NCBI GenBank assembly: GCA_036374435.1
Contig: DASUTU010000030.1
Span: forward strand, 15,539-79,538
Direction of reading: 5' to 3'
Length of the DNA: 64,000 bases
Origin: Actinomycetota bacterium
GTDB taxonomy: Bacteria > Actinomycetota > UBA4738 > HRBIN12
Shown: one piece after another, positions 16,140-30,477 of the stretch
Position numbering within the stretch: position 1 is the first letter of the stretch
How the letters are laid out: each line of letters begins with the position of its first letter
The notes under the pieces: generated by a model
The model's database searches: none
The model's input: only the letters and a program-made list of their open reading frames with translations
What the model was told of the DNA's origin: nothing
Position numbers and translations under genes: made by a program

Positions 16140-16841
16140 GTGGTTGTGACGGATCGGCCCATCCCGGAGGCCACGGTGAGCCGTCTGCCCGTCTACCTGC
16201 GGGCCCTGCTCGAGCTTGCCGAGGCGGGGGGCTCCACGGTCTCCTCGGGGGATCTCGCCGTTGGCACCGGCGTGAACTCGGCGAAGGTCCGCAAGGACCT
16301 GTCCCACCTTGGCTCCTACGGGACGCGAGGCGTTGGGTACGACGTCGCATACCTCATCCATCAGATCCGCCGCGAGCTCGGGCTCACGCAGCACTGGCCG
16401 ATCGTGATCGCCGGGATCGGGAACCTCGGGCACGCGCTCGCCAACTACAAAGGATTCGCCGAGCGTGGGTTCCGGGCGGCGGCGCTCGTCGACAACGACC
16501 CGGCCAAGATCGGCGAGGTGGTGGGAGAGCTCCGCATCCGCCCGATCGAGCACCTCGGCGACATCGCCCGCGAGCACGACGCGCTGATCGGAGTGATCGC
16601 CACCCCGGCCTCGGCCGCCCAGCAGGTGGCCGAGGCGATGGTCGAGGCGGGGATCCACTCCATCCTCAACTTCGCCCCCGCCGCGATCGTCGTGCCCGAA
16701 AGCGTCTCGGTGCGCAAGGTCGACCTGGCGGTGGAGCTTCAGATCTTGACGTACTACGAGCAGAGGAAGGCGGCGCTGGCCGAGGTGCGTCGCGGGGGGA
16801 GCCGCGAGGGGGTGCGCCCGGTGGCTACTTCGCGATCGTGA
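16140..16841 (+). CDS. rex: Redox-sensing transcriptional repressor Rex
   Basis: RLPVYLRALLELAEAG winged helix, plus a Rossmann NADH-binding domain (IAGIGNLGHALANY). Confidence 0.9.
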   Translation: MVVTDRPIPEATVSRLPVYLRALLELAEAGGSTVSSGDLAVGTGVNSAKVRKDLSHLGSYGTRGVGYDVAYLIHQIRRELGLTQHWPIVIAGIGNLGHALANYKGFAERGFRAAALVDNDPAKIGEVVGELRIRPIEHLGDIAREHDALIGVIATPASAAQQVAEAMVEAGIHSILNFAPAAIVVPESVSVRKVDLAVELQILTYYEQRKAALAEVRRGGSREGVRPVATSRS

Positions 16842-16938
16842 ACCAGAGCGCGATGAACACCACCAGGACCATGATGCCGAACAGGATGAACTGCACCGAA
16901 CCCTGGTCGATCAGCCGCGCCGTCTCCTGAGCCAGCAT
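16825..16938 (-). CDS. Possible 37-aa hydrophobic peptide (MLAQETARLIDQGSVQFILFGIMVLVVFIALWFTIAK)
   Basis: ATG 16 nt after the stop of the 3-TM gene and preceded by AACGGAGGGGAACGA (SD). It has a single TM helix and overlaps the 3' end of rex convergently. Not in the ORF track. Confidence 0.3.
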   Translation of the reverse strand: MLAQETARLIDQGSVQFILFGIMVLVVFIALWFTIAK

Positions 16939-16954
16939 TCGTTCCCCTCCGTTC

Positions 16955-17701
16955 TCAGGCCGGTCCGTACCAGGGCGGGGCCGTCCCGCCGGTCAAGATC
17001 TCCTTGCGCCTGCGCTCGGCGCGGTCGAGCAGCGGGAGGTGGATGGCCAGCCCCACCGCGGACCCGATCAGGAACATCCACGAGTACCGGTCCACGCTTC
17101 CCGAGTCATGCCGCATGAGGAGGGTCACGCGGGGCCCTCCGCCCGTGAAGTACCCCTGCGCCGCAGCCAGCGAGACGTCCTCCGCGGTGGCGAACCGGAT
17201 CTGCTCGATCGCGAAGTCGCTCGTCTGCAGGGCACCTGGCTCGTGGACGCCCAGTCCGAGGTCCTCGTTCGCCCGCTCCGCGAGGAACCCCTGGGCGGCG
17301 GTCGTCACGCTCTGGACCGATGCGCTGTCCGCGTTGTTCGAACCGGGAGCTCGCCACTCCTGCCCGTCGGGGTAGGTGGCGTAGGCGTCGTAGACCGGCT
17401 CCGGGTCGGTGCCGACGGACTCGACCACCCACGCGGGCTCGGCGCCTCGAGGGCCGAGGTTCACGGGGGTGTCCAGGCCCTGGCTGACCCAGAACCCGGT
17501 GAGCCAGATGAACGAAATGATGAACATCCATCCGAAGAAGCCCACCGCCAGAACGAGGTACCCCATCCGCCTGCCGAAGACCGCCGAGAGCAGCAGCAGG
17601 ACGCTGCCGACGAACAGGACGAACCCGAGGACGGTGGCCAGGCCGCCCTTCAGGAGCGTCTCGCAGGGAATCTCGAACCCGACGCACGTCTGGGCGAGCA
17701 T
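16955..17701 (-). CDS. Membrane protein (3 TM) of unknown function, last large gene of the bc-complex operon
   Basis: Start moved to MLAQTCVGFEIPCETLLKGG (ATG overlaps the cytochrome c stop, TGATG). The first 123 aa of ORF 16955..18070 are low-complexity read-through. Confidence 0.55.
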   Translation of the reverse strand: MLAQTCVGFEIPCETLLKGGLATVLGFVLFVGSVLLLLSAVFGRRMGYLVLAVGFFGWMFIISFIWLTGFWVSQGLDTPVNLGPRGAEPAWVVESVGTDPEPVYDAYATYPDGQEWRAPGSNNADSASVQSVTTAAQGFLAERANEDLGLGVHEPGALQTSDFAIEQIRFATAEDVSLAAAQGYFTGGGPRVTLLMRHDSGSVDRYSWMFLIGSAVGLAIHLPLLDRAERRRKEILTGGTAPPWYGPA

Positions 17702-18438
17702 CAGACTTGCGCCTCCGGGTTGTCCGTGGCCGGCGGCTTGTCCGGGAACTCCTCGTCGGCCTGCGTCTGCGCGTCGGGGTTGGTGCACACGTTCTGCTCG
17801 GCCGGCACCTGCTCCTCGTCCTGGATGCTCACGAGGTACGCCACGATGTCGTTGATCTGCTGCTCGTTCAGGGCCCCCTCGTAGCGAACGCTCCACGACG
17901 GCATCAGGCCCCGCCCCTGCTCGATCGTCGTGTAGATGTCGGCCAGGCGGTGGATCGCCGGGTGGCCGGTGAACGGGCCCCCACACACCGTGGTGAGGTT
18001 CGGCACCTGGATCGGAGTGTTCGTCTCCGTGTTGAGGATCACGCCGCCGGTCAGGTCGTCCCCGTGACACTGGACGCAGCCCACGCCGGACTGGTTCTCC
18101 TCGGTGAACAGCTCGACGGCGTGACGTCCGCGCTCGATCGCGCTGTCGGTGACCTCTCGTTCCTGCGTGAGGTTGACGTTCGGCTCGAACAGCCAGACCA
18201 CCGGGACCCAGATCACGAAGAACACGACCATCAAGACGCCCCAGCCCTGCAGCTTCTGGAGCAGGGGGGTCTCGAGATCGGCGTCGGAGGGACCCGGACG
18301 CATCCCATGCGGGACGTCCGGCGGCGGAACGACACCCGGACGGCGGCCACGCAGGAGCAGGACGGCGCCGGCGACGGCGACGACGACGGCGCCGCCGATG
18401 GCGAGGATGACCGCCTGCGCCGGGCTGATCGCGATCAC
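17701..18438 (-). CDS. Membrane-anchored mono-heme cytochrome c
   Basis: Two N-terminal TM helices, then a single CxxCH (GCVQCHGDD). Confidence 0.8.
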   Translation of the reverse strand: MIAISPAQAVILAIGGAVVVAVAGAVLLLRGRRPGVVPPPDVPHGMRPGPSDADLETPLLQKLQGWGVLMVVFFVIWVPVVWLFEPNVNLTQEREVTDSAIERGRHAVELFTEENQSGVGCVQCHGDDLTGGVILNTETNTPIQVPNLTTVCGGPFTGHPAIHRLADIYTTIEQGRGLMPSWSVRYEGALNEQQINDIVAYLVSIQDEEQVPAEQNVCTNPDAQTQADEEFPDKPPATDNPEAQV

Positions 18439-18448
18439 CGCGTCCCCC

Positions 18449-19186
18449 TCATACGGTGGCCACGCAGAACGGCCCTGCCTGGGGGCGCTGGAGCGTGTCG
18501 GTGCCGCGCGGCGGTCCCGGGACGACCACGGAGGTGTCGACCAGCACGTCCCCGGCGTCGGTGATCTCGATCCGGAACCGGTCCAGTCCGCGAGGAGCGG
18601 GACCCAGCTTGTATTCGCCCGCGGTGTTGTACTTCGAGCCGTGACAGGGACACTCGAACCACTGCGACTGCTTGCAGAACGGGACCCGGCAGCCGAGGTG
18701 CACGCAGCGCTGGTACAGCGGCATGACCCCCTCCGCCGCCAACTGGTCGGACGCGTAGTCGATGTCGCCGGAGGGACGGCCGTCGTAGATCACGATGTAG
18801 AAGCGGCCGGTGCCCGAATACACGGGCTCCTCGGTGGAGTTGATCGCGCGGCGGATGTCGGCGAGCTTTCCGGCGTTGATCACCGAACCGAACCCGCCCC
18901 GGAGGTTCGGCCACAGGAACGCGAGGGTCGCGCCCCCGAACTGCGCCCCGAACACAAGGAGGGAAGCAACCAGCGACTTCCGGAAGAACTCGCGCCGGCT
19001 GAGGGGCTTGGGGGCCTTGGGGGCGGGCTCGCCCAGCGCCGCGGCGGTGGCGGCGGCCTCGGCGGCCCGCTGCTCGCGCCGCGCTCGGAGGAACGAGAGC
19101 CCGAAGGCGATCGCGAACAGGTCGACGATGACGATGACGACGATCGCTACCAGCGTCCCGGTCGAGATGGCCAGCACCGGCGTCAT
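18449..19186 (-). CDS. qcrA: Rieske [2Fe-2S] iron-sulfur protein of the cytochrome bc/b6c complex
   Basis: CVHLGCRVP and CPCHGSKY boxes, and the Tat-like SRREFFRKS. Start taken at MTPVLAIS (ATGA overlap with the subunit IV stop). Confidence 0.85.
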
Positions 19187-20088
19187 AACTCGAAGAACAC
19201 CCCTTGCGCCCACGGCCAGACCCAGTTGTAGCCGGTGCCGCGGAAGAAGGACCCGATGATGGTCAACGTGGCGCCGAACATCATCAGCATCGTGAACATG
19301 GTGATCGCGAGCTTGCGATCACCCGGCTTGGTGCTCGGGTTGCGGTCGACGTAGGGAACCACCGCCAGGGCGAGCAGCACCAGCGTCGGAGCGAAGAGCA
19401 CGCCGGCCACCATGGGGTGGAAGTACCGCAGCAGCTCCTGGAGGCCGAGGAAGTACCACGGGGCCTTCGACGGGTTCGGGGTCAGGTTCGGGTTGGCGAG
19501 CTCGCGCAGCGGCGCATTGACGAACGTCGAGAAGATCACCAGCCCGCCGAGCACGATCAGCATGGCCACGAACTCCTCGATCAGCAGGTGCGGCCAGACG
19601 TTGATCCGGTCCCCCTGCTCCCGCTCGACCCGCTGGATCCCCTCGGGCGGCACCAGCGCCAGCAGCCGGTGTTTCTCCTGCGCCCCCTTCTTCGGCTCCG
19701 GCACGTTCCCGGTCGGAGCCGGCGCCTGCCTGGTGGGAGCCAATGTGGTGGCACCGGCGGCGGGCGCCGAAGCGGCGGCAGCCGCCGCAGGTGCCGACGC
19801 AGCAGCAGCGGGGGCCGGAGCTGCGCTCGGAGCGGAGGTCGCCGCAGGCGCCGGCGACTCGGCCGCGCCCGAAGCCGCTCCACCATCCCCCTCCGCCGCG
19901 GCTGAGCGAGCCGGCGTGGCGGCGGCCGGAGCGGGCGCGCTGCCCTCTCCGGTCTTGGCTCTATGGGCTCGAACGGCAGCCGAGCGGGCCCGGCCTTCGG
20001 CGACCCGCCGGTCGGTGCCCTTAGCGAGCTCGTCGGCCAGGACCCGGTCGAAGGTCTCCTGGTCGAGCGGGGTGTCGTCGCGCGCCAT
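19183..20088 (-). CDS. Cytochrome b C-terminal half (b6f subunit IV-like, 3 TM) with an N-terminal extension of about 150 aa
   Basis: C-terminal [28 protein letters not shown] matches PetD/QcrB-C. The N-terminus has a conserved 28-aa motif plus an Ala/Pro-rich linker. Confidence 0.8.
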
Positions 20089-20104
20089 GTCCTTGCCTCA
20101 GCTC

Positions 20105-20875
20105 CTACAGCGGTCCCGAGATGCCACCGTCTTTGCGGATCCGCCAGAAGTGCACCGCCAGGAAGATCACCAGCACGAACGGCAGCGCGAGCACGTGCAA
20201 CACGTACCAGCGGAGCAACGTGTCCGGTCCCACCACCACGCCGCCGAGCAATAGGAAGTTCGCCTGGCTGGCGATCATGGGCGAGTACGCGGCGAGGGAC
20301 GTCCCCACCGTAACCGCCCAGATCGCGAGCTGGTCCCACGGCAGCAGGTAGCCGGTGAACGACAGCCCGAGCGTCAGGAACAGCAAGACCACGCCGACCA
20401 CCCAGTTGAACTCCCGCGGCGGCTTGTACGAGCCCGTGTAGAAGACGCGGGCCATGTGCAGCGTCACGGTGAAGACCATCAGGTGGGCGCCCCAACGGTG
20501 GATGTTGCGGACCAGGTCGCCGAAGAACACGGACGTCCGGATGTTCTGCATGTCGGTGTACGCCTGGGCCGCGCCGATCTCCGCGGCGGGCCGGTAGAAG
20601 AACATCAGGAAGATCCCGGTCACCGTGAGCAGGATGAACAGGAAGAACGAGAGGCCGCCCAGGCAGAACGTGTAGGTCAACTTCAGCCCGTGACGCTTCA
20701 TCTTGACGGGGTGGAGGTGGTACAGGACGTTGTTCATGGTCGCGAGCGCCCGGTCGCGCGACGTGTCCTTGTAGCCCTTGCGGAAGATCGATCCCGGCCG
20801 GAAGATCGACTTCCAGACCTCGGTCTCCCGAACTCGATCCAGCACCTCGCTCGGCGAGGGCGGTTTGAGCTTCAC
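20105..20875 (-). CDS. qcrB: Cytochrome b6 (N-terminal, heme-binding half of a split cytochrome b)
   Basis: GTG start ([26 protein letters not shown]) after GGAAGGAGCGGG. Heme-ligand His in RWGAHLMVF and [16 protein letters not shown]; 4 TM helices. Confidence 0.85.
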
Positions 20876-20897
20876 CCCGCTCCTTCCCCAGCTCTCG

Positions 20898-21296
20898 TTA
20901 TTCGGCCTCGGCCCGCTGTGACTCGGGCACGGCGGCCATCCGTCGCTGCCCCGAGGACGGTTCGGGCAGCCGCGCATAGTACAGCGTGTCGGTGGGGCAG
21001 CGCTCGACGCAGACCGAGCACCGAGTGCAGGCGTTGTCGTCGACCACGAAGATCGAGAAGGCCTGGCCGATCTCTGCGTCCACGGCCTCGTCGGCCGCCC
21101 CCTCCACGATGTCCGTGGACATCATGAAGATGCAGTTCCACGGGCAGACGTCCTCGCAGGCCCGGCACAAGATGCAGTTGTCCGGGTCAAGCATGAGGTG
21201 TTTGGGCGAACGAACCCCCTGGGTCAGCCACGAGGGGTCGACGCCCTCCACGACGTAGTCGGTGTGGATGTCGACTTCGGTCTTCGTGAACGGCAT
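20898..21296 (-). CDS. 2[4Fe-4S] ferredoxin
   Basis: [12 protein letters not shown] and [12 protein letters not shown]. Start at MPFTKTEV, preceded by GGAGGA. Confidence 0.8.
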
Positions 21297-21312
21297 CAGT
21301 CCTCCGAACCCG

Positions 21313-21663
21313 TCATCGATACCCTCCGGTCGGGCGATCGCCCGAGGCACCCCGGAGCTTGCGGCGCCAGTTCTGCATGATCGCGGCCGCGACCACGATC
21401 GTGACGAACGGCCCGATCGACAGGTTCACCGCGACGAAGTCGCGGGCGAGAGGCCGCCAGTCCGACGTCCCCGAAAGCCCGTCCCACCCGAGCGTCTGTT
21501 CGGCGAAGTACAGCCAGAACGACGGGATCACCGCCATCGAGACGACAGAGAAGAAGCCCAATCCCACCGCGAACACGACGGCCTTCGTCCAGGTCCATTC
21601 GAAATCCCGGACGATCGGCTCGGCCCGCTCCCGCAGCTTGACCAGCGGTTCCGGGACCTTCAT
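21313..21663 (-). CDS. Small membrane protein (2 TM), first gene of the bc-complex operon
   Basis: 116 aa; hydrophobic segments AVVFAVGLGFFSVVSMAVI and GPFVTIVVAAAIM. Confidence 0.45.
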   Translation of the reverse strand: MKVPEPLVKLRERAEPIVRDFEWTWTKAVVFAVGLGFFSVVSMAVIPSFWLYFAEQTLGWDGLSGTSDWRPLARDFVAVNLSIGPFVTIVVAAAIMQNWRRKLRGASGDRPTGGYR

Positions 21664-21774
21664 ACGACCCCCACCATCACGCGAAACGTAACTCCCAACT
21701 CGATCGCGCGTCCCGAAGGCGGATTCTACACGGGCCCCTGGTGCCTCCCGGGCGCCGAGCTCCTGCGGGACGTC

Positions 21775-21792
21775 TCGTGAAAGCCTTCACAA
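21775..21792. promoter_or_regulatory. Rex operator TCGTGAAagccTTCACAA in the divergent bc-operon / ccdA intergenic region
   Basis: Matches TTGTGAA-N4-TTCACAA at 13 of 14 half-site positions. Lies 112 nt upstream of the bc-operon start and about 78 nt upstream of the ccdA start. Confidence 0.6.
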
Positions 21793-21869
21793 GCGCACGT
21801 TCCAACTATGGCAAGGAGCCTTGGCCGCCGCAACCCACTCTCCACGGAGCCCACTCCTACACTTGGGGT

Positions 21870-22607
21870 GTGCTCGTGGACTTCGTCCAGGACGGCCTCG
21901 GGTCGTGGTGGGCGCCCGGGCTGGCGTTCGCGGCCGGGGTCGTCTCGTTCGCCTCGCCGTGCGTCTTCCCGTTAGTGCCGGGGTACCTGTCGTTCGTCGC
22001 CGGGGGCGAGGCGGCGGACGAACGCCGGTCGGCCGTCCCGATCCTCCTGTTCATCGCGGGCTTCGCGGCGGTGTTCACGGCGCTGGGCGCGTTCACGGGG
22101 GCGATCAAGAGCGTGCTGGCCTCGTCGGCGGGGATCCGCGTCTCGGGCGCGATCATCGTGGCCTTCGGCGTGCTGATGCTCCTGTACGCGCTCCGCATCG
22201 GGACGCCGTCGCTGTTCGCGGAGCGCCGCCCCCTCCTCGCCGAGGTTCGCCCGGGGCCCGTGTGGGCGTTCCCGCTCGGGGTGGCGTTCGGCGCTGGCTG
22301 GACCCCGTGCATCGGGCCGGTCCTCGCCGGCGTCCTGGCCATCGCGGCAGCCCAGGGCGGCTCGTTCCGGGGGGCCGGGCTGCTGTTCGTCTACTCGATC
22401 GGGCTGGGGTTGCCGTTCTTGCTGGTCGGCCTGGGCGTGAGGCGGTTGATGGGCGCCCTCGCGTTCGTGCGGCGGAACTATCACTGGTTCGCCGGTGTCT
22501 CCGGCGTCGTGATGATCGCGATCGGAGTGTTGGTGGCGACCAACCTGTGGACGCGGCTGCTGGGTCCGGTGCTCCGGGCCATCAACAGCTTCGAGCCGCC
22601 GATCTGA
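21870..22607 (+). CDS. ccdA: Cytochrome c-type biogenesis protein CcdA (DsbD-family thiol:disulfide transporter)
   Basis: ASPCVFPLVPGYLSF and GWTPCIGPVL conserved Cys motifs; 6 TM helices. Confidence 0.8.
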   Translation: MLVDFVQDGLGSWWAPGLAFAAGVVSFASPCVFPLVPGYLSFVAGGEAADERRSAVPILLFIAGFAAVFTALGAFTGAIKSVLASSAGIRVSGAIIVAFGVLMLLYALRIGTPSLFAERRPLLAEVRPGPVWAFPLGVAFGAGWTPCIGPVLAGVLAIAAAQGGSFRGAGLLFVYSIGLGLPFLLVGLGVRRLMGALAFVRRNYHWFAGVSGVVMIAIGVLVATNLWTRLLGPVLRAINSFEPPI

Positions 22608-22701: not shown

Positions 22702-23883
22702 GTGCGCCGGCATTCGGTGACCCGGCGATGCTCGGTTCGGAGGGATCCGGCGAAGGTGCGTAGGAAGACGCTGCTGGCCGTCGGCCTGGTGGCCCTGGCC
22801 GCGGTCCTCGGCGCGTGCGCCCCGAATGCCACCCAGGACTCCCTGGAGCCGGCGGGGGAGTTCGCGCGCAAGTCCCACGATCTGTTCGTGCCGGTCTTCT
22901 GGGTGGCGACCGGCATCTTCGTCGTGGTCGAGGGCGCCCTGGTCGTCTTCGCGTTCCGGTATCGCCACCGCAAGGGCCGCGAGGGGATCCCTCCGCAGGT
23001 GCACGGGAACACCCGGCTCGAGGTGGCCTGGACGATCCTTCCGGCCGTGATCCTTGCCGGCGTGGCCGTTCCCACGGTCGCGACGATCTTCGACCTGGCG
23101 CGCCAGCCCGAAGAGGGCACCATGCGGGTGGACGTCCTCGGGCACCAGTGGTGGTGGGAGTTCAACTATCTCGAGCAGGGGTTTACCACCGCGAACGAGC
23201 TCCACATCCCCACGGGCGAGCCCGTCTACCTCCGCCTGTGCGGCGTGGGGCTGGGCGGCATCCCGGACGCCAAGACGCCGGTACCGACAGAGTGCCAGCC
23301 GGGCCCACCGGACGGCCCCGCGGCGGCGGCCGTCGGCGACGCGGTGGTCCACTCGTTCTGGGTGCCGCAGCTCGCCGGGACGATCGACGTCGTGCCGGGC
23401 CAGACCAATTTCTTGTGGATCGAGGCCGACGAGCCGGGCCGATACCCGGGGCAATGCAAGGAGTTCTGCGGGCTCTCTCACGCGTACATGAAGTTCGTCG
23501 TGGTGGCGCACGACCCGGGGGACTACCAACGGTGGGTGGAGGGGCAGCAGGCCCCGGCCGCGATGCCCGAGCCGGAGACCGCGGCCGCGTCGGGCGCGCA
23601 GACGTTCGCCGCCCAGAACCGGTGCACGCGGTGCCACACCATCGACGGGCTGGAGGACCAGGACGGCCAACCCGTCGTCGGCTCGAACGGAGCCCCCGAC
23701 CTGACGCACTTCATGAGCCGCGAGTGTTTCCGCGGGTGCACGCTGCCCGTCACCGAGGAGAACCTGCGGCGATGGCTGCAGAACCCGCAGGCCGTGGAGG
23801 CCGGGTCGTGGATGGTGGTCGACCCGCCGCTGACCGAGGGCGAGATCGACGACCTCGTCGCGTTCCTGCAGACGTTGCGATGA
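22702..23883 (+). CDS. ctaC: Cytochrome c oxidase subunit II, caa3 type with a C-terminal cytochrome c domain
   Basis: CuA site H..CKEFCGLSHAYM and C-terminal NRCTRCH (CxxCH). Lipoprotein-type signal. A GTG at 22756 is an alternative start. Confidence 0.85.
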   Translation: MRRHSVTRRCSVRRDPAKVRRKTLLAVGLVALAAVLGACAPNATQDSLEPAGEFARKSHDLFVPVFWVATGIFVVVEGALVVFAFRYRHRKGREGIPPQVHGNTRLEVAWTILPAVILAGVAVPTVATIFDLARQPEEGTMRVDVLGHQWWWEFNYLEQGFTTANELHIPTGEPVYLRLCGVGLGGIPDAKTPVPTECQPGPPDGPAAAAVGDAVVHSFWVPQLAGTIDVVPGQTNFLWIEADEPGRYPGQCKEFCGLSHAYMKFVVVAHDPGDYQRWVEGQQAPAAMPEPETAAASGAQTFAAQNRCTRCHTIDGLEDQDGQPVVGSNGAPDLTHFMSRECFRGCTLPVTEENLRRWLQNPQAVEAGSWMVVDPPLTEGEIDDLVAFLQTLR

Positions 23884-23899
23884 CGGAGGGGGTGATGCG

Positions 23900-25798
23900 G
23901 TGGCGAGCGTGAGCGTTCCGGCGCGGCGTCCAGGCCTCCTCGGCCGTCCGACGTCCACCACCGGGCTGTGGTCCTGGTTCACCACCGTGGACCACAAGAA
24001 GATCGGCATCCTCTACGGGGTCACCGCGTTCGCGTTCTTCCTCGTCGGCGGCGTCGAGGCCCTCCTGATCCGGGTACAGCTGGCCAGGCCGGACCAGAAC
24101 GTCATCTCGGAGGCGGCGTTCAACGAGCTGTTCACGATGCACGGCGTGACGATGGTGTTCCTCGTCGTCATGCCGCTCTCGGCCGCCTTCTTCAACTACT
24201 TCATCCCCCTCATGATCGGGGCCCGGGACGTGGCGTTCCCGCGGCTGAACGCCTACAGCTACTGGGCGTTCCTGTTCGCGGGCATCTTCATCTATTCGAG
24301 CTGGTTCCTGGGCGGCGCGCCGAACGGCGGCTGGTTCGGCTATCCGCCGAACTCGGTCCTCGACCCCACGCGAGGGATGACGTTCTACTCGCTCGGCCTG
24401 CTGATCGCGGGGATCGCCTCGACCGTGTCCGCGGTGAACCTGGCCGTGACGGTGATCAACATGCGGGCGCCCGGCATGACGCTGTTCCGGATGCCGGTGT
24501 TCGTGTGGATGGGGCTCGTGGTCCAGCTCCTGCTGGCCTTCTCGCTTCCGATCGTCACGATCGGGCTGGTCGAGCTGTTGTTCGACCGTCGGTTCGGGAC
24601 CCACTTCTTCGACGCCGCGGCGGGGGGGAGCCCCGTCCTGTGGCAGCACCTGTTCTGGTTGTTCGCGCACCCAGAGGTCTACATCCTGGTCCTGCCCGCC
24701 ATGGGCATCGTGTCCGAGATCCTGCCGGTGTTCTCGCGCAAACCGCTGTTCGGCTACCAGTTCGTGGTCTTCAGCGGCATCGCCATCGGCTTCATCGGGT
24801 TCGGCGTGTGGGCCCACCACATGTTCGCGGTGGGCCTGGGCCCGATCGCCAACACGGCGTTCGGCATCTCGACGATGATCATCGCCGTGCCGACCGGCGT
24901 GAAGATCTTCAACTGGCTCGGCACGATGTGGCGCGGCGACATCCGCTTCACCACGCCGATGCTGTTCGCCATCGGGTTCATCGGCATGTTCGTGATCGGT
25001 GGGCTCTCGGGCGTCTCGCACGCCGTCGTGCCCGCGGACTACCAGCAGACCGACACGTACTACATCGTGGCGCACTTCCACTACGTGCTCTTCGGCGGCG
25101 CGATCTTCGGGCTCTTCGGCGGGATCTACTACTGGTGGCCGAAGGTGTTCGGCCGGATGTTGTCCGAGCGGGCCGGCAAGTGGAACTTCTGGATCATGCT
25201 CGTCGGGTTCAACATGACGTTCGGGCCGATGCACGTGCTGGGGCTCCAGGGCATGCCGCGGCGGATCCAGAGCTACCCGGAGTCGCTCGGCCTGACGTTC
25301 TGGAACACGGTGTCGACGGTGGGCGCCTTCCTGATCGCCGTGAGCGTGCTGGTGTTCCTCGTCACCGCCGTGGCGAGCTTCCGCAGGCCCAAGGAGATGG
25401 AGGCCGATCCGTGGGACGCCAGGACGCTCGAGTGGTTCACGTCCTCGCCGCCGCCGGAGCACAACTTCGACGAGATCCCCACGGTGCATTCCCTGGATGA
25501 GCTCTGGCACCGCAAGTACGCCGAGACCCACGGCGGCAGGGTGGTCCCCGTTCCGGCCGGCGGCTCGGGCCGGCCGGCGTCGGGTCACGGCCGGAGCGAA
25601 GGGGACGGCGGGCACGGGTCGGAGCACGGCGGGCACGGGATCCACCTCCCGGGGCCGTCGTATTACCCGCTGATCGCGTCGCTCGGGCTCCCCATCGTCG
25701 GGTACGGGTTGATCTTCGGGTGGTGGATGGTCGGGGTCGGCCTGCTGGTCACGCTGGCCGGCTTCTACGGCTGGATCCTGGAGCCCTCGGCGGAGTGA
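23900..25798 (+). CDS. ctaD: Cytochrome c oxidase subunit I with a C-terminal CtaF-like 2-TM extension
   Basis: WFTTVDHKKIGILY.. is canonical COX1. There is an extra His-rich linker of about 75 aa (GHGRSEGDGGHGSEHGGHG), then LPGPSYYPLIASLGLPIVGYGLIFGWW, which resembles the C-terminal helices of actinobacterial CtaF. Confidence 0.85.
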   Translation: MASVSVPARRPGLLGRPTSTTGLWSWFTTVDHKKIGILYGVTAFAFFLVGGVEALLIRVQLARPDQNVISEAAFNELFTMHGVTMVFLVVMPLSAAFFNYFIPLMIGARDVAFPRLNAYSYWAFLFAGIFIYSSWFLGGAPNGGWFGYPPNSVLDPTRGMTFYSLGLLIAGIASTVSAVNLAVTVINMRAPGMTLFRMPVFVWMGLVVQLLLAFSLPIVTIGLVELLFDRRFGTHFFDAAAGGSPVLWQHLFWLFAHPEVYILVLPAMGIVSEILPVFSRKPLFGYQFVVFSGIAIGFIGFGVWAHHMFAVGLGPIANTAFGISTMIIAVPTGVKIFNWLGTMWRGDIRFTTPMLFAIGFIGMFVIGGLSGVSHAVVPADYQQTDTYYIVAHFHYVLFGGAIFGLFGGIYYWWPKVFGRMLSERAGKWNFWIMLVGFNMTFGPMHVLGLQGMPRRIQSYPESLGLTFWNTVSTVGAFLIAVSVLVFLVTAVASFRRPKEMEADPWDARTLEWFTSSPPPEHNFDEIPTVHSLDELWHRKYAETHGGRVVPVPAGGSGRPASGHGRSEGDGGHGSEHGGHGIHLPGPSYYPLIASLGLPIVGYGLIFGWWMVGVGLLVTLAGFYGWILEPSAE

Positions 25799-25805
25799 GG
25801 ACCTG

Positions 25806-26435
25806 ATGGCCACTGTCGAACACGCGGACGAACGCCCACTCGTCGTCGAGGAGCACGCCACCAGCACGGGGTTGCCGAACACGAAGCTCGCGATGTGGCT
25901 GTTCCTGGCTTCGGACTGCCTGTTGTTCGGCGCCCTGATCTCGACGTACGTGCTCTATCGGGGCGCCAGCACCACCGGGCCGTTCCCGAACGACGTCTTC
26001 GACATCCCCTACACGTCCGTGTCGTCATTCGTGCTGCTGGCCAGCTCGCTCACGATGGTGCTCGCCCTGGCGGCGATCCAGCGCGGTGACGTGGCCCGCT
26101 CGCGCGTGTGGCTGCTGGCGACCGCGCTGCTCGGGTCGACCTTCGTCGGGGGGCAGGTCTACGAGTTCACCGCGTTCCACGACGAGGGCCTCACGCTGAG
26201 CGCCAACGTGTTCGGGTCGTCGTTCTACGTCCTGACCGGCTTCCACGGGACGCACGTCACGGTCGGCGTCCTGATGTTGCTGACGTTGGTGTTCCTCTCT
26301 CTGGCCGGGCGCCTCGGCCCCGAACGCGCGGAGACGGTCGAGATGGTCGGCCTGTATTGGCACTTCGTCGACATCGTTTGGATCGTCATCTTCACGGTCG
26401 TCTACCTGATCCCGACCGGGAACGGGAGTCCCTGA
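25806..26435 (+). CDS. ctaE: Cytochrome c oxidase subunit III
   Basis: Typical COX3 helices (WLFLASDCLLFGALI, FYVLTGFHGTHV). Confidence 0.9.
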   Translation: MATVEHADERPLVVEEHATSTGLPNTKLAMWLFLASDCLLFGALISTYVLYRGASTTGPFPNDVFDIPYTSVSSFVLLASSLTMVLALAAIQRGDVARSRVWLLATALLGSTFVGGQVYEFTAFHDEGLTLSANVFGSSFYVLTGFHGTHVTVGVLMLLTLVFLSLAGRLGPERAETVEMVGLYWHFVDIVWIVIFTVVYLIPTGNGSP

Positions 26436-26776
26436 TGGCCACCGAGCCCGTCGAACGCTCCGAGCGGATCGCGGCCAGACAACGCACTCACGCGCGCCAC
26501 CCGAGCACGAGGGAATACGTGCGGATCGCGATCGTCCTGGCCGTGGTCACGGCGGCCGAGGTGGCCATCTACTACATCGACTGGATCCACGAGAACGGAC
26601 TCCTGATCCCCCTGCTGTTCCTGTTCTCGTTGATCAAGTTCTCGCTCGTCGTGATGTGGTTCATGCACCTGAAGTTCGACAGCCGGACGTACTCGCGCTT
26701 CTTCCTCATGGGCCTGGCGGGCGCGATCACCCTGTACCTCATCGTGTTGTTGCTGTTTCGGACGTTTGCGAACTGA
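26435..26776 (+). CDS. ctaF: Cytochrome c oxidase subunit IV (prokaryotic COX4 / Bacillus CtaF type)
   Basis: 113 aa, 3 TM. TGATG overlap with ctaE. Confidence 0.7.
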   Translation: MATEPVERSERIAARQRTHARHPSTREYVRIAIVLAVVTAAEVAIYYIDWIHENGLLIPLLFLFSLIKFSLVVMWFMHLKFDSRTYSRFFLMGLAGAITLYLIVLLLFRTFAN

Positions 26777-26778
26777 CC

Positions 26779-27606
26779 ATGCCCGGCTGGCATCCCCACG
26801 CCGACGTCTGGCTCCTCCTCGGAGGCCTCTGGGTGGGGTATCTGGTCGCCTGGCGGCGACGCGCGGCCGACGTCCCTCCCGCCCGAGAGCAACGGCGCCG
26901 CCGCACCGCGCTGTTCACCGTCGGGATGGCGCTCCTGCTGTTGGCGTCCGACTGGCCGGTGCACGACCTGGCCGAGGAGCGCCTGTATTCGGCGCACATG
27001 GTTCAGCACCTCGTCTACACGCTCGTGGCGGCGCCGTTGCTTCTCGCGGGGGTGCCCGCGTGGATGTGGCGAGCGCTGCTGCGCCCGTCGCCCGTGTGGG
27101 CGGTGTTCGGGTTCCTGACGCGCCCGATCGTCGCGCTCGCCGTGTTCAACGGGCTGCTCCTGCTCACGCACTGGCCGGAGGTCGTGAACGCCTCCGTGAG
27201 GTCGGAGTGGACCCACTTCGGCCTGCACGTCCTGATCGTCGGATCGGCCGTGGTGATGTGGTGGCCCGTGCTCTCCCCGCTGCCCGAACGCCCGCCATTG
27301 TCCCCCCCGCTCCAGATGGTCTACCTGTTCCTGCAGTCGCTGGCGCCGACCATCCCCGCGTCGTTCCTCACCTTCGGGACCTCGCCGCTCTACGCGGCCT
27401 ACGAGTCCTTCCCCAGGACGTGGGGGCTCAGCGCGCTGGACGACCAGCTCATCGCCGGCCTGGTGATGAAGATCGCCGGCGGGCTGATCCTGTGGGCGTT
27501 CATCGCGGTGATCTTCTTCAACTGGCACGCCCGGGAGCGAACGGGGTGGGACGCCCTGGGTCTGCGGCAGGTGGAGCGCGACGTCCGGGCGAGGATGGCC
27601 CGGTGA
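26779..27606 (+). CDS. ctaG: Cytochrome c oxidase assembly factor CtaG (caa3 type)
   Basis: SAHMVQHLVYTLVAAPLLLAGVP motif; multi-TM. Confidence 0.7.
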   Translation: MPGWHPHADVWLLLGGLWVGYLVAWRRRAADVPPAREQRRRRTALFTVGMALLLLASDWPVHDLAEERLYSAHMVQHLVYTLVAAPLLLAGVPAWMWRALLRPSPVWAVFGFLTRPIVALAVFNGLLLLTHWPEVVNASVRSEWTHFGLHVLIVGSAVVMWWPVLSPLPERPPLSPPLQMVYLFLQSLAPTIPASFLTFGTSPLYAAYESFPRTWGLSALDDQLIAGLVMKIAGGLILWAFIAVIFFNWHARERTGWDALGLRQVERDVRARMAR

Positions 27607-30388: not shown

Positions 30389-30405
30389 CGGAGGTCGGCG
30401 CCCGT

Positions 30406-30423: not shown

Positions 30424-30477
30424 CCCCGCGGGCCGATCCCCACACCGGCCGGCGACCCGTCTTGCGATACTCCTCCG

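What the first reader, a model, noticed from the sequence alone, without database searches (positions are those of the whole stretch)
16825..21663. Non-actinobacterial-style Rieske/cytochrome b operon: split b6 plus subunit IV, mono-heme cytochrome c, a dedicated 2[4Fe-4S] ferredoxin and three extra membrane proteins
The gene order on the minus strand is: 116-aa membrane protein, 2[4Fe-4S] ferredoxin, cytochrome b6, subunit IV, Rieske, mono-heme membrane cytochrome c, 3-TM protein, and a possible 37-aa peptide. All are closely spaced or overlapping.
Typical Actinobacteria have qcrC (di-heme) - qcrA - qcrB with an unsplit cytochrome b. Here the complex is b6f/Bacillus-like. It also carries a soluble-type ferredoxin gene between the first membrane protein and b6, which is not a known bc or b6f component.
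The ferredoxin could be an extra subunit, or it could indicate electron input or output other than quinol to cytochrome c.
Basis: partly seen in the sequence, partly recalled or inferred. Interest (0 to 1): 0.7.

Follow-up and report, generated by a model that had tools for sequence, protein, structure and literature searches.

The report
Ferredoxin-linked Rieske/cytochrome b6 respiratory operon
This is a real eight-gene operon for a b6f-like quinol-oxidising respiratory complex that always travels with its own small iron-sulfur (ferredoxin) protein, an undescribed feature conserved across uncultured and non-model Actinomycetota that may connect the membrane quinone pool to low-potential electron carriers inside the cell.

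Summary
On the minus strand, 21663-16825, eight tightly packed genes encode a 2-TM protein, a 2[4Fe-4S] ferredoxin, cytochrome b6 (heme-cN cysteine present), subunit IV (Qo motif APWY), a Rieske protein, a mono-heme cytochrome c, a 3-TM protein and a 37-aa TM peptide. A conserved Rex box lies upstream.

The split-b architecture is already known in deep-branching Actinobacteria as the 'APWY clade' or subfamily G. That part is therefore not new.

The ferredoxin is the interesting part. In 76 of 76 testable related loci it sits directly upstream of b6. These loci include MAGs labelled Nitriliruptorales, Euzebyaceae and Egibacteraceae; a further Acidimicrobiia-type ferredoxin subgroup has the same gene order. 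It is better conserved than the Rieske protein.

Among its closest relatives outside the family is the C-terminal 2[4Fe-4S] domain of about 600-aa NAD(P) oxidoreductases. Those proteins are encoded next to APWY-type Rieske/cyt b genes, and in one locus occupy the same gene slot. This is the architecture described for the cytoplasmic-side module of the anammox (Kuenenia) complexes.

Best reading: the ferredoxin is a cytoplasmic-side iron-sulfur port of the complex, without the flavin/NAD(P) part. Physical association and direction of electron flow are inferred, not shown. I rate it a new variant of a known kind.

The parts
21775..21792 (.). Rex operator-like palindrome (TCGTGAAAGCCTTCACAA). It lies 112 nt upstream of the orfA ATG, in the divergent region shared with ccdA.
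   Evidence: 1 mismatch to TTGTGAANNNNTTCACAA. The window holds 5 sites against 0.18 expected. A site at the same position, and the only one in each locus, is found in 39 of 49 close relatives.
21313..21663 (-). orfA: 116-aa protein with 2 TM segments. Both termini are predicted cytoplasmic, and the C-terminal tail ends in ...RPTGGYR.
   Evidence: ORF, RBS-like stretch and GC3 of 0.88. No Pfam or NCBIfam hit. A TM ORF ending in GGY(R/K), or VKGY..GK in the most distant loci, directly precedes the ferredoxin gene in nearly all 82 loci.
20898..21296 (-). 2[4Fe-4S] ferredoxin-like protein of 132 aa. It has no signal peptide or TM segment. It carries an N-terminal lead-in, an insert of about 36 aa between the two cluster motifs, a ninth cysteine (CPWNC) and a C-terminal tail.
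   Evidence: Pfam Fer4/Fer4_7. Motifs located. Eight Cys, P52 and W53 are invariant across the family. 84 of 85 orthologues keep both motifs and CPxxC. AF2 model pLDDT 71. Best PDB matches are the FwdF polyferredoxin and NuoI/HycF/NdhI-type subunits.
20105..20875 (-). Cytochrome b6 of 256 aa. It has four heme-ligand histidines, the heme-cN cysteine (FCLGG) and a long conserved cytoplasmic N-terminal segment (W.S.FRPGS..FRKGY...HLHP).
   Evidence: Pfam Cytochrome_B 1e-42. NCBIfam ExtP 289 bits against a cut-off of 290. Residue-by-residue alignment to chloroplast b6 1q90_B, including Cys35 and the C-terminal GISGPL. HLHP and xCLGG are present in 77 of 77 orthologues. N-terminal conservation shown.
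19183..20088 (-). Subunit IV of 301 aa. It has a long Ala/Pro-rich N-terminal extension, Qo motif APWY and a WPHLLIEEF motif with a conserved Glu.
   Evidence: Pfam Cytochrom_B_C. Matches PDB subunit IV and the C-terminal part of cyt b. APWY is present in all 56 loci that reach this gene.
18449..19186 (-). Rieske iron-sulfur protein of 245 aa. It has an extra N-terminal TM segment, a Tat-like RREF motif and the S-Y 'high-potential' signature (CPCHGSKY). Its start overlaps the subunit IV stop (ATGA).
   Evidence: Pfam Rieske. Motifs. Best PDB hits are 9rk4 and 9rk3, the Kuenenia Kuste4569 and Kustd1480 proteins. All 57 orthologues have CPCHGS[KR]Y. The signature rule comes from PMC4122944.
17701..18438 (-). 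Membrane-anchored mono-heme class I cytochrome c of 245 aa, with one CVQCH motif.
   Evidence: Pfam Cytochrome_CBB3 and Cytochrom_C. Motif and TM segments. The protein is mono-heme in 33 orthologues and di-heme in 21; the Acidimicrobiia-type L083 cytochrome c is also di-heme.
16955..17701 (-). orfG: 248-aa protein with 3 TM segments and an extracytoplasmic loop of about 140 aa. Its start overlaps the cytochrome c stop by 1 nt.
   Evidence: No family hit. Conserved at this position in related loci: median 52% identity in close loci and 27% in distant ones.
16825..16938 (-). pep37: a 37-aa single-TM peptide, probably a small subunit comparable in size and topology to the small single-TM subunits of b6f complexes.
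   Evidence: GGAGGGGA RBS and GC3 of 0.95. Conserved ...LLDQGSVQFIL.GVM.....LWITIAK-stop in 25 loci, with codon position 2 the most constrained. Called as a 38-aa gene in L001 and L002.
16140..16841 (+). Rex redox-sensing repressor gene. It is convergent with the operon and overlaps the pep37 stop by 17 bp.
   Evidence: NCBIfam Rex 331 bits against a cut-off of 226. Rex is found at the same position in close relatives and in the Acidimicrobiia-type loci L083 and L084.
21741..22607 (+). ccdA (DsbD_TM family, cytochrome c biogenesis), divergent from the operon. The true start is probably near 21870.
   Evidence: Pfam DsbD_TM. Conserved as the divergent neighbour in close loci.
22702..27606 (+). 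Genes for the likely electron acceptor of the complex, a caa3-type oxidase. They are COX2 with a fused cytochrome c domain (22702-23883), COX1 (23900-25798), COX3 (25806-26435) and CtaG (26656-27606).
   Evidence: ORFs and the CTRCH motif in COX2. Pfam COX3 and Caa3_CtaG. COX genes are annotated in L001 and L002.

Best explanation
The operon encodes the organism's menaquinol:cytochrome c oxidoreductase. It is a heme-cN-type Rieske/b6/subunit IV complex of the APWY clade that feeds the neighbouring caa3 oxidase.

The ferredoxin is a dedicated cytoplasmic-side (n-side) 2[4Fe-4S] component of that complex. It is probably held in place by the 2-TM protein orfA and by the conserved cytoplasmic N-terminal segment of b6. 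It would act as a two-cluster wire between the n-side hemes (bN/cN, possibly also an inter-monomer heme at the conserved HLHP motif) and a soluble cytoplasmic redox partner. In effect it is the cyt b-proximal FeS domain of the anammox-type n-side NAD(P) oxidoreductase, present as a separate protein without the FAD/NAD(P) part.

The direction of electron flow is not determined. I lean (about 55:45) towards outward flow. In that reading, part of the low-potential electron released by menaquinol oxidation at Qo is handed to a ferredoxin-type acceptor, while the other electron goes via Rieske and cytochrome c to the oxidase.

Shown here: gene content, cofactor motifs, strict synteny, conservation, the Rex box, and similarity to the NAD(P)-oxidoreductase C-terminal domain.

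Inferred: physical association, electron transfer, direction and partner.
For: 1. Linkage. The ferredoxin gene is followed directly by b6 in 76 of 76 loci with enough downstream DNA, in ferredoxins down to 40% identity. The same order occurs in the Acidimicrobiia-type loci L083 and L084.
2. Co-expression design. Gaps to orfA and b6 are 16 and 22 nt. There is no internal promoter-like site, and terminator-like hairpins are at chance level. The Rex box lies upstream of orfA, so it also covers the ferredoxin, and it is conserved in 39 of 49 close loci.
3. Constraint. Median identity in close relatives is 90% for b6 and 77% for the ferredoxin. That is higher than Rieske (62%), subunit IV (55%) and cytochrome c (54%).
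4. Subunit-like anatomy. It has N- and C-terminal extensions, a long inter-motif insert and a ninth Cys, all conserved. The fold matches NuoI/HycF/NdhI-type subunits and FwdF.
5. Known counterpart. In a search of 1.84 billion representatives, proteins of about 600 aa with Fer4_20, Pyr_redox_2 and a C-terminal 2[4Fe-4S] domain are among the nearest non-family hits. They share CPxxCI and the long insert. blastp against the L086 domain gives 34% identity over 115 aa, E 1e-17.
6. Shared genomic position. Four of five such genes examined lie beside APWY-type Rieske/cyt b or subunit IV genes. In L089 the order is oxidoreductase-b6-suIV-Rieske-cyt c, so the oxidoreductase occupies the ferredoxin slot.
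7. Match to the anammox literature. This is the architecture described for Kuenenia Kuste4570 and Kustd1483, modelled on the n-side of the cyt b dimer. Their FeS clusters were placed using the same Fwd structure (5t5i) that tops my searches (PMC12954380).
8. b6 N-terminus. The segment W.S.FR...HLHP is conserved in all 77 orthologues and is also present in L083, L086 and L089. The ExtP model for Geobacter, whose cluster has no such module, aligns only from residue 47 of the 256-aa protein.
9. Lean towards outward flow. All 57 Rieske orthologues carry the S-Y 'high-potential' signature. The phylum uses menaquinone only (established knowledge). This is the same pairing as in Kuenenia, where Rieske potentials of +303 and +335 mV were measured and outward flow was proposed.
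Against: - Nothing here shows physical association. I could not model the complex, and the AF2 model of the ferredoxin alone has only moderate confidence (pLDDT 71).
- The protein has no TM segment and could be a soluble carrier.
- Its similarity to the oxidoreductase C-terminal domain is of the same order as its similarity to polyferredoxin domains (FwdF, 71 bits). Specific homology therefore rests partly on synteny and a few shared features.
- The Qi-site features are all conserved: the heme-cN Cys, and the conserved Glu and His in WPHLLxxEF of subunit IV. This argues that an ordinary Q cycle still runs, so any side port could be minor.
- No partner enzyme is encoded nearby.
- The anammox mechanism used as the analogy is itself untested.
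- One ferredoxin homologue (L085) is followed by a 511-aa protein with no Pfam hit rather than by b6.
- Reverse co-occurrence was not tested, i.e. whether every b6 of this type in Actinomycetota has the ferredoxin.
Confidence: 0.58

Rival explanations
1. Same n-side FeS subunit, but electrons flow inward. Reduced cytoplasmic ferredoxin, for example from 2-oxoacid:ferredoxin oxidoreductases, would deliver electrons through the two clusters to hemes cN/bN and reduce menaquinone at Qi. The complex would then also be a ferredoxin:menaquinone oxidoreductase. This is the activity long hypothesised for b6f in cyclic electron flow.
For: All the evidence for subunit status applies equally. The reaction is strongly exergonic and needs no special tuning. 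The Qi site looks intact, with the heme-cN Cys in 77 of 77 b6 orthologues and a conserved Glu in subunit IV. The idea that heme cN can take electrons from ferredoxin-type carriers is established as a hypothesis for b6f (PMC5600118). The operon is under Rex, like other NADH-responsive respiratory genes in the window.
Against: It does not explain the universal S-Y 'high-potential' Rieske signature in a menaquinone-only phylum. The authors of the anammox study considered the inward route energetically wasteful. No ferredoxin-producing enzyme is linked to the operon in any lineage examined.
Confidence: 0.25
2. The ferredoxin is not a subunit. It is a soluble protein that is merely co-transcribed. 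It could be an electron donor or chaperone for maturation of the complex (heme-cN attachment, Rieske cluster insertion), or a general ferredoxin whose expression is usefully tied to respiration.
For: It has no TM segment or signal peptide. It is annotated generically everywhere. The operon neighbours cytochrome c biogenesis genes (ccdA, and resB/resC in relatives). Heme-cN maturation factors in non-photosynthetic bacteria are, to my knowledge, unknown.
Against: Assembly factors are rarely the second most conserved protein of an operon (77% against 62% for Rieske). Its relatives are built into a subunit type that, in the anammox complexes, co-purifies in complexome data as summarised in PMC5600118 and is modelled on the cyt b dimer. 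Its partner orfA, with an invariant C-terminal GGY(R/K), is equally linked. The conserved b6 N-terminal extension looks like a docking surface.
Confidence: 0.15
3. The ferredoxin is bound to the complex but acts as a structural, sensory or regulatory FeS module. It would report oxygen, NO or redox state and gate activity or supercomplex formation, rather than carrying electrons through.
For: [4Fe-4S] clusters are common oxygen and redox sensors (established knowledge). The operon is part of a redox-sensing (Rex) regulon. A ninth conserved cysteine (CPxxC) lies next to cluster 1.
Against: Two complete low-potential-type cluster motifs arranged as a wire are typical of relays. The homologous domain in the about-600-aa proteins connects to a FAD/NAD(P) site, which implies through-transfer.
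Confidence: 0.07
4. The gene is a displaced complex I subunit (NuoI) or another ordinary housekeeping ferredoxin (FdxA) that lies next to the operon by chance.
For: Public annotations call relatives 'NADH-quinone oxidoreductase subunit I'. The best NCBIfam hits are NuoI models. The fold is NuoI-like.
Against: NuoI models score about 40 bits against cut-offs of 113-260, and FdxA models about 31 bits against 65-135. The window has its own nuo clusters, including a NuoI-like gene at 51428-52300. Adjacency to b6 in 76 of 76 loci excludes chance.
Confidence: 0.01

Closest known systems
Anammox (Kuenenia stuttgartiensis) Rieske/cytochrome b complexes Kuste4569-4574 and Kustd1480-1485, with a cytoplasmic-side NAD(P) oxidoreductase subunit (Dibrova subfamily G; PMC12954380, PMC5600118)
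   Same: - Both have a b6-like four-helix cytochrome b plus subunit IV.
- The window Rieske domain's best PDB matches are these two Rieske proteins (9rk4, 9rk3), and both sides carry high-potential-type signatures.
- Both have a chain of [4Fe-4S] clusters on the n-side. The window ferredoxin resembles the C-terminal 2[4Fe-4S] domain of proteins with this architecture (34% identity, E 1e-17, shared CPxxCI and long insert).
- In metagenomic relatives that oxidoreductase occupies the same gene slot as the ferredoxin (L089).
   Different: - Here the n-side module is a stand-alone 132-aa protein with only two clusters. It has no Fer4_20 domain, FAD or NAD(P) site.
- It comes with a dedicated 2-TM partner, orfA.
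- The p-side partner is a simple mono-heme cytochrome c beside a caa3 oxidase, not a multiheme or HAO-type protein.
- The hosts are aerobic-type Actinomycetota, not anammox Planctomycetes.
- I did not have the Kuenenia sequences themselves, only proteins of the same architecture.
Cyanobacterial/chloroplast cytochrome b6f
   Same: - Both have split b6 and subunit IV and four His ligands.
- The heme-cN cysteine aligns with Cys35, and the C-terminus is an identical GISGPL.
- Both have small single-TM subunits; pep37 is analogous in size and topology.
- A proposed but unproven electron link between heme cN and ferredoxin exists for b6f.
   Different: - The Qo motif is APWY, not PEWY.
- There is no cytochrome f and no PetG, PetL, PetM or PetN homologues.
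- The quinone is menaquinone.
- The cytoplasmic N-terminus of b6 is 36 residues longer and carries HLHP.
- A ferredoxin is encoded in the operon, which b6f lacks.
Geobacter extHIJKLMNOPQS / 'bc complex' cluster (ExtP cytochrome b, ExtQ, Rieske GSU2933)
   Same: The b6 scores 289 bits on the ExtP equivalog model (cut-off 290), and subunit IV hits ExtQ. Both belong to the APWY clade.
   Different: The Geobacter cluster pairs the Rieske/b core with four multiheme cytochromes c and has no ferredoxin or n-side module. The ExtP model lacks the first 46 residues of the window b6. The ExtQ score of 55 bits is far below its cut-off of 150.
Firmicutes menaquinol:cytochrome c reductase QcrABC (b6c complex)
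   Same: Both are Gram-positive, use menaquinol, have split b6 and subunit IV with a heme-cN cysteine, and feed a caa3-type oxidase.
   Different: They belong to different clades (subfamilies B and C; Qo motif PDWY or PEWY; low-potential Rieske signature). In Firmicutes subunit IV is fused to cytochrome c. No ferredoxin is described there.
Canonical actinobacterial cytochrome bcc (QcrCAB)
   Same: Same phylum, and the same presumed role of menaquinol oxidation feeding an aa3-type oxidase.
   Different: QcrB is unsplit at about 540 aa, QcrC is di-heme, and the Qo motif is PDWY. All three NCBIfam bcc models are far below cut-off here.
2[4Fe-4S] relay subunits of membrane complexes (NuoI/NdhI/HycF) and the Fwd polyferredoxin FwdF
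   Same: These are the best structural and sequence matches in the PDB. They share the two-cluster wire with extensions that dock onto partner subunits.
   Different: The window protein fails every NuoI family cut-off. TM-scores are only about 0.42. It is linked to cytochrome b6, not to complex I or hydrogenase modules.

Membership tests
Rieske/cytochrome b complex, b6f-type (heme-cN-containing) | Four-helix cytochrome b with two His pairs ligating hemes bP and bN | tested here: met
   All four His align with H86, H100, H187 and H202 of chloroplast b6. Pfam Cytochrome_B 1e-42.
Rieske/cytochrome b complex, b6f-type (heme-cN-containing) | CxGG motif with the cysteine that binds heme cN | tested here: met
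   FCLGG aligns with Cys35 of b6. xCLGG is present in 77 of 77 orthologues. Actual heme attachment was not testable.
Rieske/cytochrome b complex, b6f-type (heme-cN-containing) | Separate three-helix subunit IV carrying the Qo motif | tested here: met
   Pfam Cytochrom_B_C, three TM segments, and an xPWY motif in the form APWY.
Rieske/cytochrome b complex, b6f-type (heme-cN-containing) | Membrane-anchored Rieske protein with CxHxGC and CxCH boxes | tested here: met
   CVHLGC and CPCHGSKY. Matches PDB Rieske proteins.
Rieske/cytochrome b complex, b6f-type (heme-cN-containing) | Quinol:cytochrome c (or plastocyanin) oxidoreductase activity with a Q cycle | not testable with these tools
   Inferred only, from the cofactor motifs and the adjacent caa3 oxidase genes.
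APWY clade (Kao & Hunte 2014) / subfamily G (Dibrova 2013, 2017) | Qo motif APWY, with split cyt b usually carrying CxGG | tested here: met
   APWY in the window and in 56 of 56 loci that reach subunit IV. Clade definition. No phylogenetic tree was built.
APWY clade (Kao & Hunte 2014) / subfamily G (Dibrova 2013, 2017) | Associated Rieske protein with a Mid+ to high-potential signature (S-F or S-Y) | tested here: met
   CPCHGS[KR]Y gives the S-Y signature in 57 of 57 orthologues. Rule. The potential itself was not measured.
Geobacter ExtP/ExtQ (NCBIfam equivalogs NF040969 and NF040970) | Score at or above the curated equivalog cut-off | tested here: not met
   ExtP 289.0 bits against 290, just under. 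ExtQ 54.7 bits against 150. The operon also lacks the multiheme cytochromes of the ext cluster.
Actinobacterial cytochrome bcc (QcrCAB) | Unsplit QcrB, di-heme QcrC and QcrA passing the NCBIfam bcc models | tested here: not met
   113.7 against 500, 18.9 against 200 and 30.9 against 275 bits. The cytochrome b is split and the cytochrome c is mono-heme.
Anammox-type Rieske/cyt b complex with n-side NAD(P) oxidoreductase | Subunit with Fer4_20, a FAD/NAD(P)-binding Pyr_redox_2 domain and a C-terminal 2[4Fe-4S] domain, encoded with the Rieske/b genes | tested here: not met
   Only the 2[4Fe-4S] part is present. No Pyr_redox or Fer4_20 gene lies in the operon. The ferredoxin does resemble that C-terminal domain.
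Anammox-type Rieske/cyt b complex with n-side NAD(P) oxidoreductase | FeS chain physically docked on the n-side of the cyt b dimer | not testable with these tools
   A complex model or structure is needed. Only single-chain prediction was available.
NuoI (complex I subunit I) / housekeeping FdxA | Score at or above the NCBIfam cut-offs | tested here: not met
   NuoI models score 26-40 bits against 113-260. FdxA models score 30-32 bits against 65-135.
Rex regulon member | Rex operator (TTGTGAA-N4-TTCACAA) in the promoter region, with a Rex gene in the genome | tested here: met
   Site at 21775-21792 with 1 mismatch, and window-wide enrichment of 5 against 0.18 expected. Positional conservation in 39 of 49 close loci. 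Rex gene scores 331 bits. Binding and regulation were not testable.

The most novel reading that the evidence does not exclude
The main complex III of a large part of the Actinomycetota may be a ferredoxin-coupled Rieske/b6 complex. This would cover the Acidimicrobiia-type loci, the MAGs labelled Nitriliruptorales, Euzebyaceae and Egibacteraceae, and the soil lineage of this window.

In this reading the low-potential branch of menaquinol oxidation (bP to bN/cN) exchanges electrons with a bound 2[4Fe-4S] protein. The enzyme would then use quinol-based electron bifurcation, driven by O2 reduction through caa3, to make reduced ferredoxin in an aerobe. Running the other way, it would inject ferredoxin electrons at heme cN.

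That would be a minimal, natural and possibly culturable version of two debated mechanisms. One is anammox-style NAD(P)H generation by Rieske/b complexes. The other is the ferredoxin-to-heme-cN route of cyclic electron flow in b6f. A further speculative extension is that the reduced ferredoxin is re-oxidised by the second nuo-like cluster in the window, which lacks NuoB/D/E/F/G.
Probability: 0.25. Interest if true: 0.85.

Novelty: new variant of a known kind. Interest (0 to 1): 0.63.

Why it matters
Rieske/cytochrome b complexes are textbook enzymes with a fixed catalytic core. Extra cytoplasmic-side redox modules have so far been discussed almost only for anammox bacteria, and there only from genomics, complexome data and AlphaFold models.

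This operon suggests that a stripped-down version of that module is the rule in several Actinomycetota lineages that are well represented in public metagenomes. The module consists of a two-cluster ferredoxin plus a small membrane partner. It sits next to an ordinary caa3 oxidase and under Rex control.

If the ferredoxin is bound and redox-connected, three things follow:
- Complex III in these bacteria has a third electron port, which changes how their respiratory energetics and ferredoxin economy should be modelled.
- It offers a simple system to test whether heme cN can exchange electrons with an FeS protein, an open question for b6f and cyclic electron flow.
- It offers a way to test whether quinol-based bifurcation can drive low-potential reductions.

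It would also correct thousands of database entries that currently read 'NuoI', 'PreA subunit' or '4Fe-4S binding protein'.

Tried and rejected
- **NuoI or FdxA identity:** rejected on NCBIfam cut-offs and synteny.
- **A ferredoxin in the Geobacter ExtP-type cluster:** this would have explained the near-cut-off ExtP hit. Rejected, because that cluster has only c-type cytochromes, Rieske and cyt b.
- **Solved structure of such a complex:** none found. PDB sequence searches with the ferredoxin and b6 return only generic FeS subunits and canonical b6f, bc1 and bcc complexes.
- **Literature:** None of the returned titles or abstracts concerns a stand-alone ferredoxin in a Rieske/b operon, and the papers I opened do not describe one; most returned papers were not opened. 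Supplements of the two key phylogenomic papers are not held. Dibrova 2013 and ten Brink 2013 could not be read, so an earlier mention in a figure cannot be excluded.
- **Naming a cultured carrier:** the third homologue search returned no species names. The AFDB50 fold library was unavailable. Only MAG labels such as 'Euzebya sp.' and 'Egicoccus sp.' are available.
- **Complex modelling:** not attempted. The structure tool handles one chain and returns no contacts.
- **Internal promoters or terminators:** none above chance. The scan covers only sigma-70-type consensus and is weak for a genome with 70% GC.
- **RNA elements:** no Rfam family or tRNA in the window.
- **Automatic subunit IV orthologue extraction:** failed because of the low-complexity N-terminus. 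It was replaced by a direct motif scan.
- **Exact taxon of the window:** not resolved. Relatives are labelled only 'Actinomycetota' or 'Actinomycetes bacterium'.

Full report
**1. What is in the sequence**

The window has about 70% GC. On the minus strand between 21663 and 16825 there are eight consecutive ORFs. All have GC3 of 0.87-0.95, and all but the ATGA-overlapped Rieske gene have a purine-rich GGAGG-like stretch upstream.

| Gene | Coordinates | Size | Features |
|---|---|---|---|
| orfA | 21663-21313 | 116 aa | 2 TM |
| ferredoxin | 21296-20898 | 132 aa | two complete CxxCxxCxxxCP motifs |
| cytochrome b6 | 20875-20105 | 256 aa | heme-cN cysteine |
| subunit IV | 20088-19183 | 301 aa | Qo motif APWY |
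| Rieske | 19186-18449 | 245 aa | CVHLGC...CPCHGSKY |
| cytochrome c | 18438-17701 | 245 aa | one CVQCH |
| orfG | 17701-16955 | 248 aa | 3 TM |
| pep37 | 16938-16825 | 37 aa | 1 TM |

- Intergenic distances are 16, 22, 16, -4, 10, -1 and 16 nt.
- Pfam and NCBIfam confirm the ferredoxin, b6, subunit IV, Rieske and cytochrome c assignments. They find nothing for orfA, orfG and pep37.
- There is no promoter-like site inside the operon, and terminator-like hairpins are at chance level.
- pep37 is a genuine gene. It is conserved with the same stop position in 25 relatives, and its codon position 2 is the most constrained.

**2. Surroundings**

- Divergent from orfA lies ccdA.
- Next comes a caa3-type oxidase set: COX2 with a fused cytochrome c domain, COX1, COX3 and CtaG. 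After it come a CtaA-CtaB fusion, polyprenyl synthases and two sets of complex I genes.
- Convergent with the 3' end is a Rex gene (331 bits) followed by a glutaredoxin-like gene.
- A Rex operator-like palindrome with one mismatch sits at 21775-21792, 112 nt upstream of orfA. The window holds five such sites against 0.18 expected. The others lie at 31916 and 31949 (upstream of an FAD-binding protein gene that precedes nuoB), at 49031 (upstream of the nuoA gene at 49065) and at 42154.
- In 39 of 49 close relatives a Rex box occupies the same position and is the only one in the locus.

The whole region is a respiratory island. The operon, ferredoxin included, very probably belongs to the Rex regulon. 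No canonical qcrCAB is present in the window.

**3. What kind of Rieske/b complex**

- The b6 aligns residue by residue with chloroplast b6. The alignment includes the four heme-ligand histidines, Cys35 (heme cN) and the C-terminal GISGPL.
- Its best curated family is the Geobacter ExtP model, at 289 bits against a cut-off of 290. The actinobacterial QcrB, QcrA and QcrC models fail by wide margins.
- Subunit IV carries APWY instead of PEWY or PDWY.
- Kao & Hunte (2014) defined an 'APWY clade'. It contains delta-Proteobacteria, Chloroflexi, Nitrospirales, Planctomycetes, two deep Firmicutes and some deep-branching Actinobacteria. Among Actinobacteria they found split cyt b only in Rubrobacteridae strains and Ilumatobacter. 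None of the clade had been characterised.
- Dibrova et al. (2017) call the corresponding group subfamily G. They note that its short cyt b genes co-occur with large FeS/NAD(P) oxidoreductases.
- The window Rieske domain is most similar, among all PDB chains, to 9rk4 and 9rk3. These are the Kuenenia Kuste4569 and Kustd1480 Rieske proteins.

The 'b6f/Bacillus-like, non-actinobacterial' label should therefore be replaced by 'APWY clade / subfamily G, native to non-model Actinomycetota'.

**4. The ferredoxin is a fixed part of the module**

- A homologue search found more than 1000 proteins, the listed ones 77-92% identical. The few that carry a source name are from Actinomycetota MAGs.
- A search of 1.84 billion cluster representatives revealed a second subgroup at about 40% identity. 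It turned out to be from Acidimicrobiia.
- A scan of one genome per GTDB species found at least 579 places encoding a relative. The best 80 are labelled Actinomycetota, apart from two unclassified 'uncultured bacterium' records and one 2-kb contig labelled as an archaeon. The more distant ones are labelled Nitriliruptorales, Euzebyaceae, Egibacteraceae and Egicoccus.
- In every one of 76 loci with enough downstream DNA, the ferredoxin gene is followed directly by b6. Where the contig continues, subunit IV, Rieske, cytochrome c and, in most loci, an orfG-like gene follow.
- The Acidimicrobiia-type loci L083 and L084 have the same order, with Rex and the glutaredoxin-like gene again at the 3' end.
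- A TM protein gene precedes the ferredoxin in nearly all loci. Its product ends in an invariant GGY(R/K), or VKGY..GK in the most distant loci.
- Median identities to the window in the close group are: b6 90, ferredoxin 77, Rieske 62, subunit IV 55, cytochrome c 54, orfG 52 and orfA 51.
- Eight cluster cysteines, P52 and W53 are invariant, and a ninth cysteine (CPxxC) is nearly so.

**5. A known counterpart**

- Outside the family itself, the nearest representatives include at least nine proteins of about 600 aa. They are built of Fer4_20, a Pyr_redox_2 FAD/NAD(P) domain and a C-terminal 2[4Fe-4S] domain. The ferredoxin aligns to that last domain.
- The alignment shows the same lead-in, the same long inter-motif insert, CPxxCI and D(D/E)xxC(T/I)RC.
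- blastp against one such domain (L086) gives 34% identity over 115 residues, E 1e-17.
- I looked up five of these genes. Four lie directly beside APWY-type Rieske, cytochrome b or subunit IV genes (L086, L088, L089, L090).
- In L089 the order is oxidoreductase-b6-suIV-Rieske-di-heme cytochrome c. The oxidoreductase occupies exactly the slot of the window's ferredoxin, and its b6 is 58% identical to the window's, with HLHP and CLGG.
- One of the nine representatives (P0234, whose genomic context I did not examine) is from a Limnocylindrales (Chloroflexota) MAG.
- This architecture is the one described for Kuenenia Kuste4570 and Kustd1483. AlphaFold3 models place these on the n-side of the cyt b dimer, with four FeS clusters leading to FAD. 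They also predict an extra heme b ligated by a histidine from the N-terminal part of each cyt b. The FeS clusters were positioned using the Fwd polyferredoxin structure 5t5i (PMC12954380).
- The same entry tops my sequence and fold searches with the window ferredoxin.
- The cytoplasmic N-terminal segment of b6 (W.S.FR...HLHP) is at least 95% conserved in 77 orthologues. It is also present in L083, L086 and L089. The ExtP model for Geobacter, whose cluster has no such module, starts only at residue 47.

**6. Mechanism**

Shown:
- The complex has all sequence features for a heme-cN-type Q-cycle enzyme.
- It has an obligatorily linked, highly constrained, cytoplasmic two-cluster protein.
- That protein is related to the cyt b-proximal FeS domain of the n-side oxidoreductase type.

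Inferred:
- The ferredoxin binds on the n-side. It would be helped by orfA's cytoplasmic tail and by the N-termini of b6 and subunit IV.
- It would relay electrons between hemes bN/cN and a soluble partner. Because it has no flavin site, the distal cluster must meet a diffusible protein.

Direction:
- All 57 Rieske orthologues carry the S-Y signature, which predicts a potential above about +260 mV.
- Actinomycetota use only menaquinone, at about -75 mV (established knowledge).
- In Kuenenia the same combination, with measured potentials of +303 and +335 mV, was argued to push heme bP low enough to reduce NAD(P)+.
- By analogy I lean slightly towards an outward, bifurcation-driven reduction of a ferredoxin-type acceptor.
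- An intact-looking Qi site makes inward ferredoxin:menaquinone reduction, or a reversible port, nearly as plausible.
- A merely co-transcribed soluble or maturation ferredoxin remains possible (about 0.15). A sensory role is less likely.

**7. Novelty and limits**

The components and the idea of n-side modules on subfamily G complexes are known. I could not find a description of this version:
- a stand-alone ferredoxin with a small membrane partner;
- conserved across Acidimicrobiia-type loci, Nitriliruptorales/Euzebyaceae/Egibacteraceae-labelled MAGs and the window's soil lineage;
- embedded in an aerobic caa3/Rex context.

Seven full-text searches found nothing. Two subscription papers and the supplements of the key phylogenomic studies could not be read.

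Main limits:
- There is no evidence of physical association.
- No complex model was built.
- The reverse co-occurrence test was not done.
- One homologue (L085) has a different neighbour.
- No cultured carrier could be named.

I rate it a new variant of a known kind, of above-average interest. It would make two long-debated electron routes at heme cN experimentally approachable.

Noticed in passing
window 31916-31933, 31949-31966 and 49031-49048: There are further Rex-box matches with 1, 0 and 2 mismatches. Two are in tandem just upstream of, or overlapping, the start of an FAD-binding (geranylgeranyl-reductase-like) gene that precedes nuoB/D/G. One is 17 nt upstream of a nuoA gene (49065). 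The Rex regulon here seems to cover complex III and both complex I gene sets.
   Followed up: partly
window 33622-47936 and 49065-58177: There are two complex I gene sets. The first has nuoB, nuoD, nuoG, nuoJ, nuoL and nuoM homologues. The second has homologues of nuoA, C, H, a 290-aa NuoI-like 2[4Fe-4S] protein, J, L, M and N, but I found no B, D, E, F or G homologue between them. It could be a partial duplicate or an unusual NDH-like complex with a different electron-input module.
   Followed up: partly
window 21313-21400 (orfA C-terminus); loci L001-L082: The small TM protein upstream of the ferredoxin ends in a strictly conserved ...GGYR or ...GGYK at the very C-terminus (VKGY..GK in the most distant loci), although the rest of the protein diverges to 22-33% identity. 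Ferredoxins of the second subgroup, the one the Acidimicrobiia-type loci belong to, instead end in ...GY.YG.R(F). This looks like a docking motif.
   Followed up: partly
window 19660-20088 (subunit IV N-terminus): Subunit IV carries a cytoplasmic N-terminal extension of about 150 aa, with a stretch of about 90 aa rich in Ala and Pro. The extension is variable between lineages, but a short RLLA.V motif before the first TM segment is shared with L083, L086 and L089.
   Followed up: partly
window 16825-16841: The stop-proximal ends of pep37 (minus strand) and rex (plus strand) overlap by 17 bp. The two convergent transcription units therefore have no room for separate terminators.
   Followed up: no
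window 17701-18438; L051-L084: The cytochrome c subunit is mono-heme in 33 orthologues, the window's among them, and di-heme in 21. In the Acidimicrobiia-type locus L083 it is a 499-aa di-heme protein. The p-side partner is much more variable than the n-side ferredoxin.
   Followed up: partly
window 28559-30445 (minus strand): A single 628-aa ORF combines COX15/CtaA (heme A synthase) and UbiA/CtaB (heme O synthase) domains. This is a fused heme A biosynthesis enzyme next to the oxidase genes.
   Followed up: no
L085 672-2784: One ferredoxin homologue (P0163, 137 aa, with a CGAGYGC insertion in motif 1) is followed by a 511-aa protein with no Pfam hit rather than by b6. It is the only exception to the ferredoxin-b6 linkage that I saw.
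   Followed up: partly
L086 2-2444: The NAD(P) oxidoreductase gene next to Rieske/cyt b in L086 is preceded by the 3' end of a second, very similar oxidoreductase gene, apparently a tandem duplicate. The cyt b there is a fused b6-suIV protein with WGLGG in place of the heme-cN cysteine.
   Followed up: no
window 15819-16070; L001, L002, L083, L084: A glutaredoxin-like DUF836 gene sits next to rex in the window, in close relatives and in the Acidimicrobiia-type loci. The rex/glutaredoxin-like pair is an old neighbour of this operon.
   Followed up: no
L045 (CAYFXO010000169.1): A 2-kb contig carrying orfA, the ferredoxin and b6 at 69-84% identity is filed under a 'Methanomassiliicoccales archaeon' MAG. 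Similarly, one ferredoxin hit of the Acidimicrobiia type is labelled Gemmatimonadales (P0351) and one of the Nitriliruptorales type is labelled Acidobacteria (P0554). These are probably binning errors rather than transfers.
   Followed up: no
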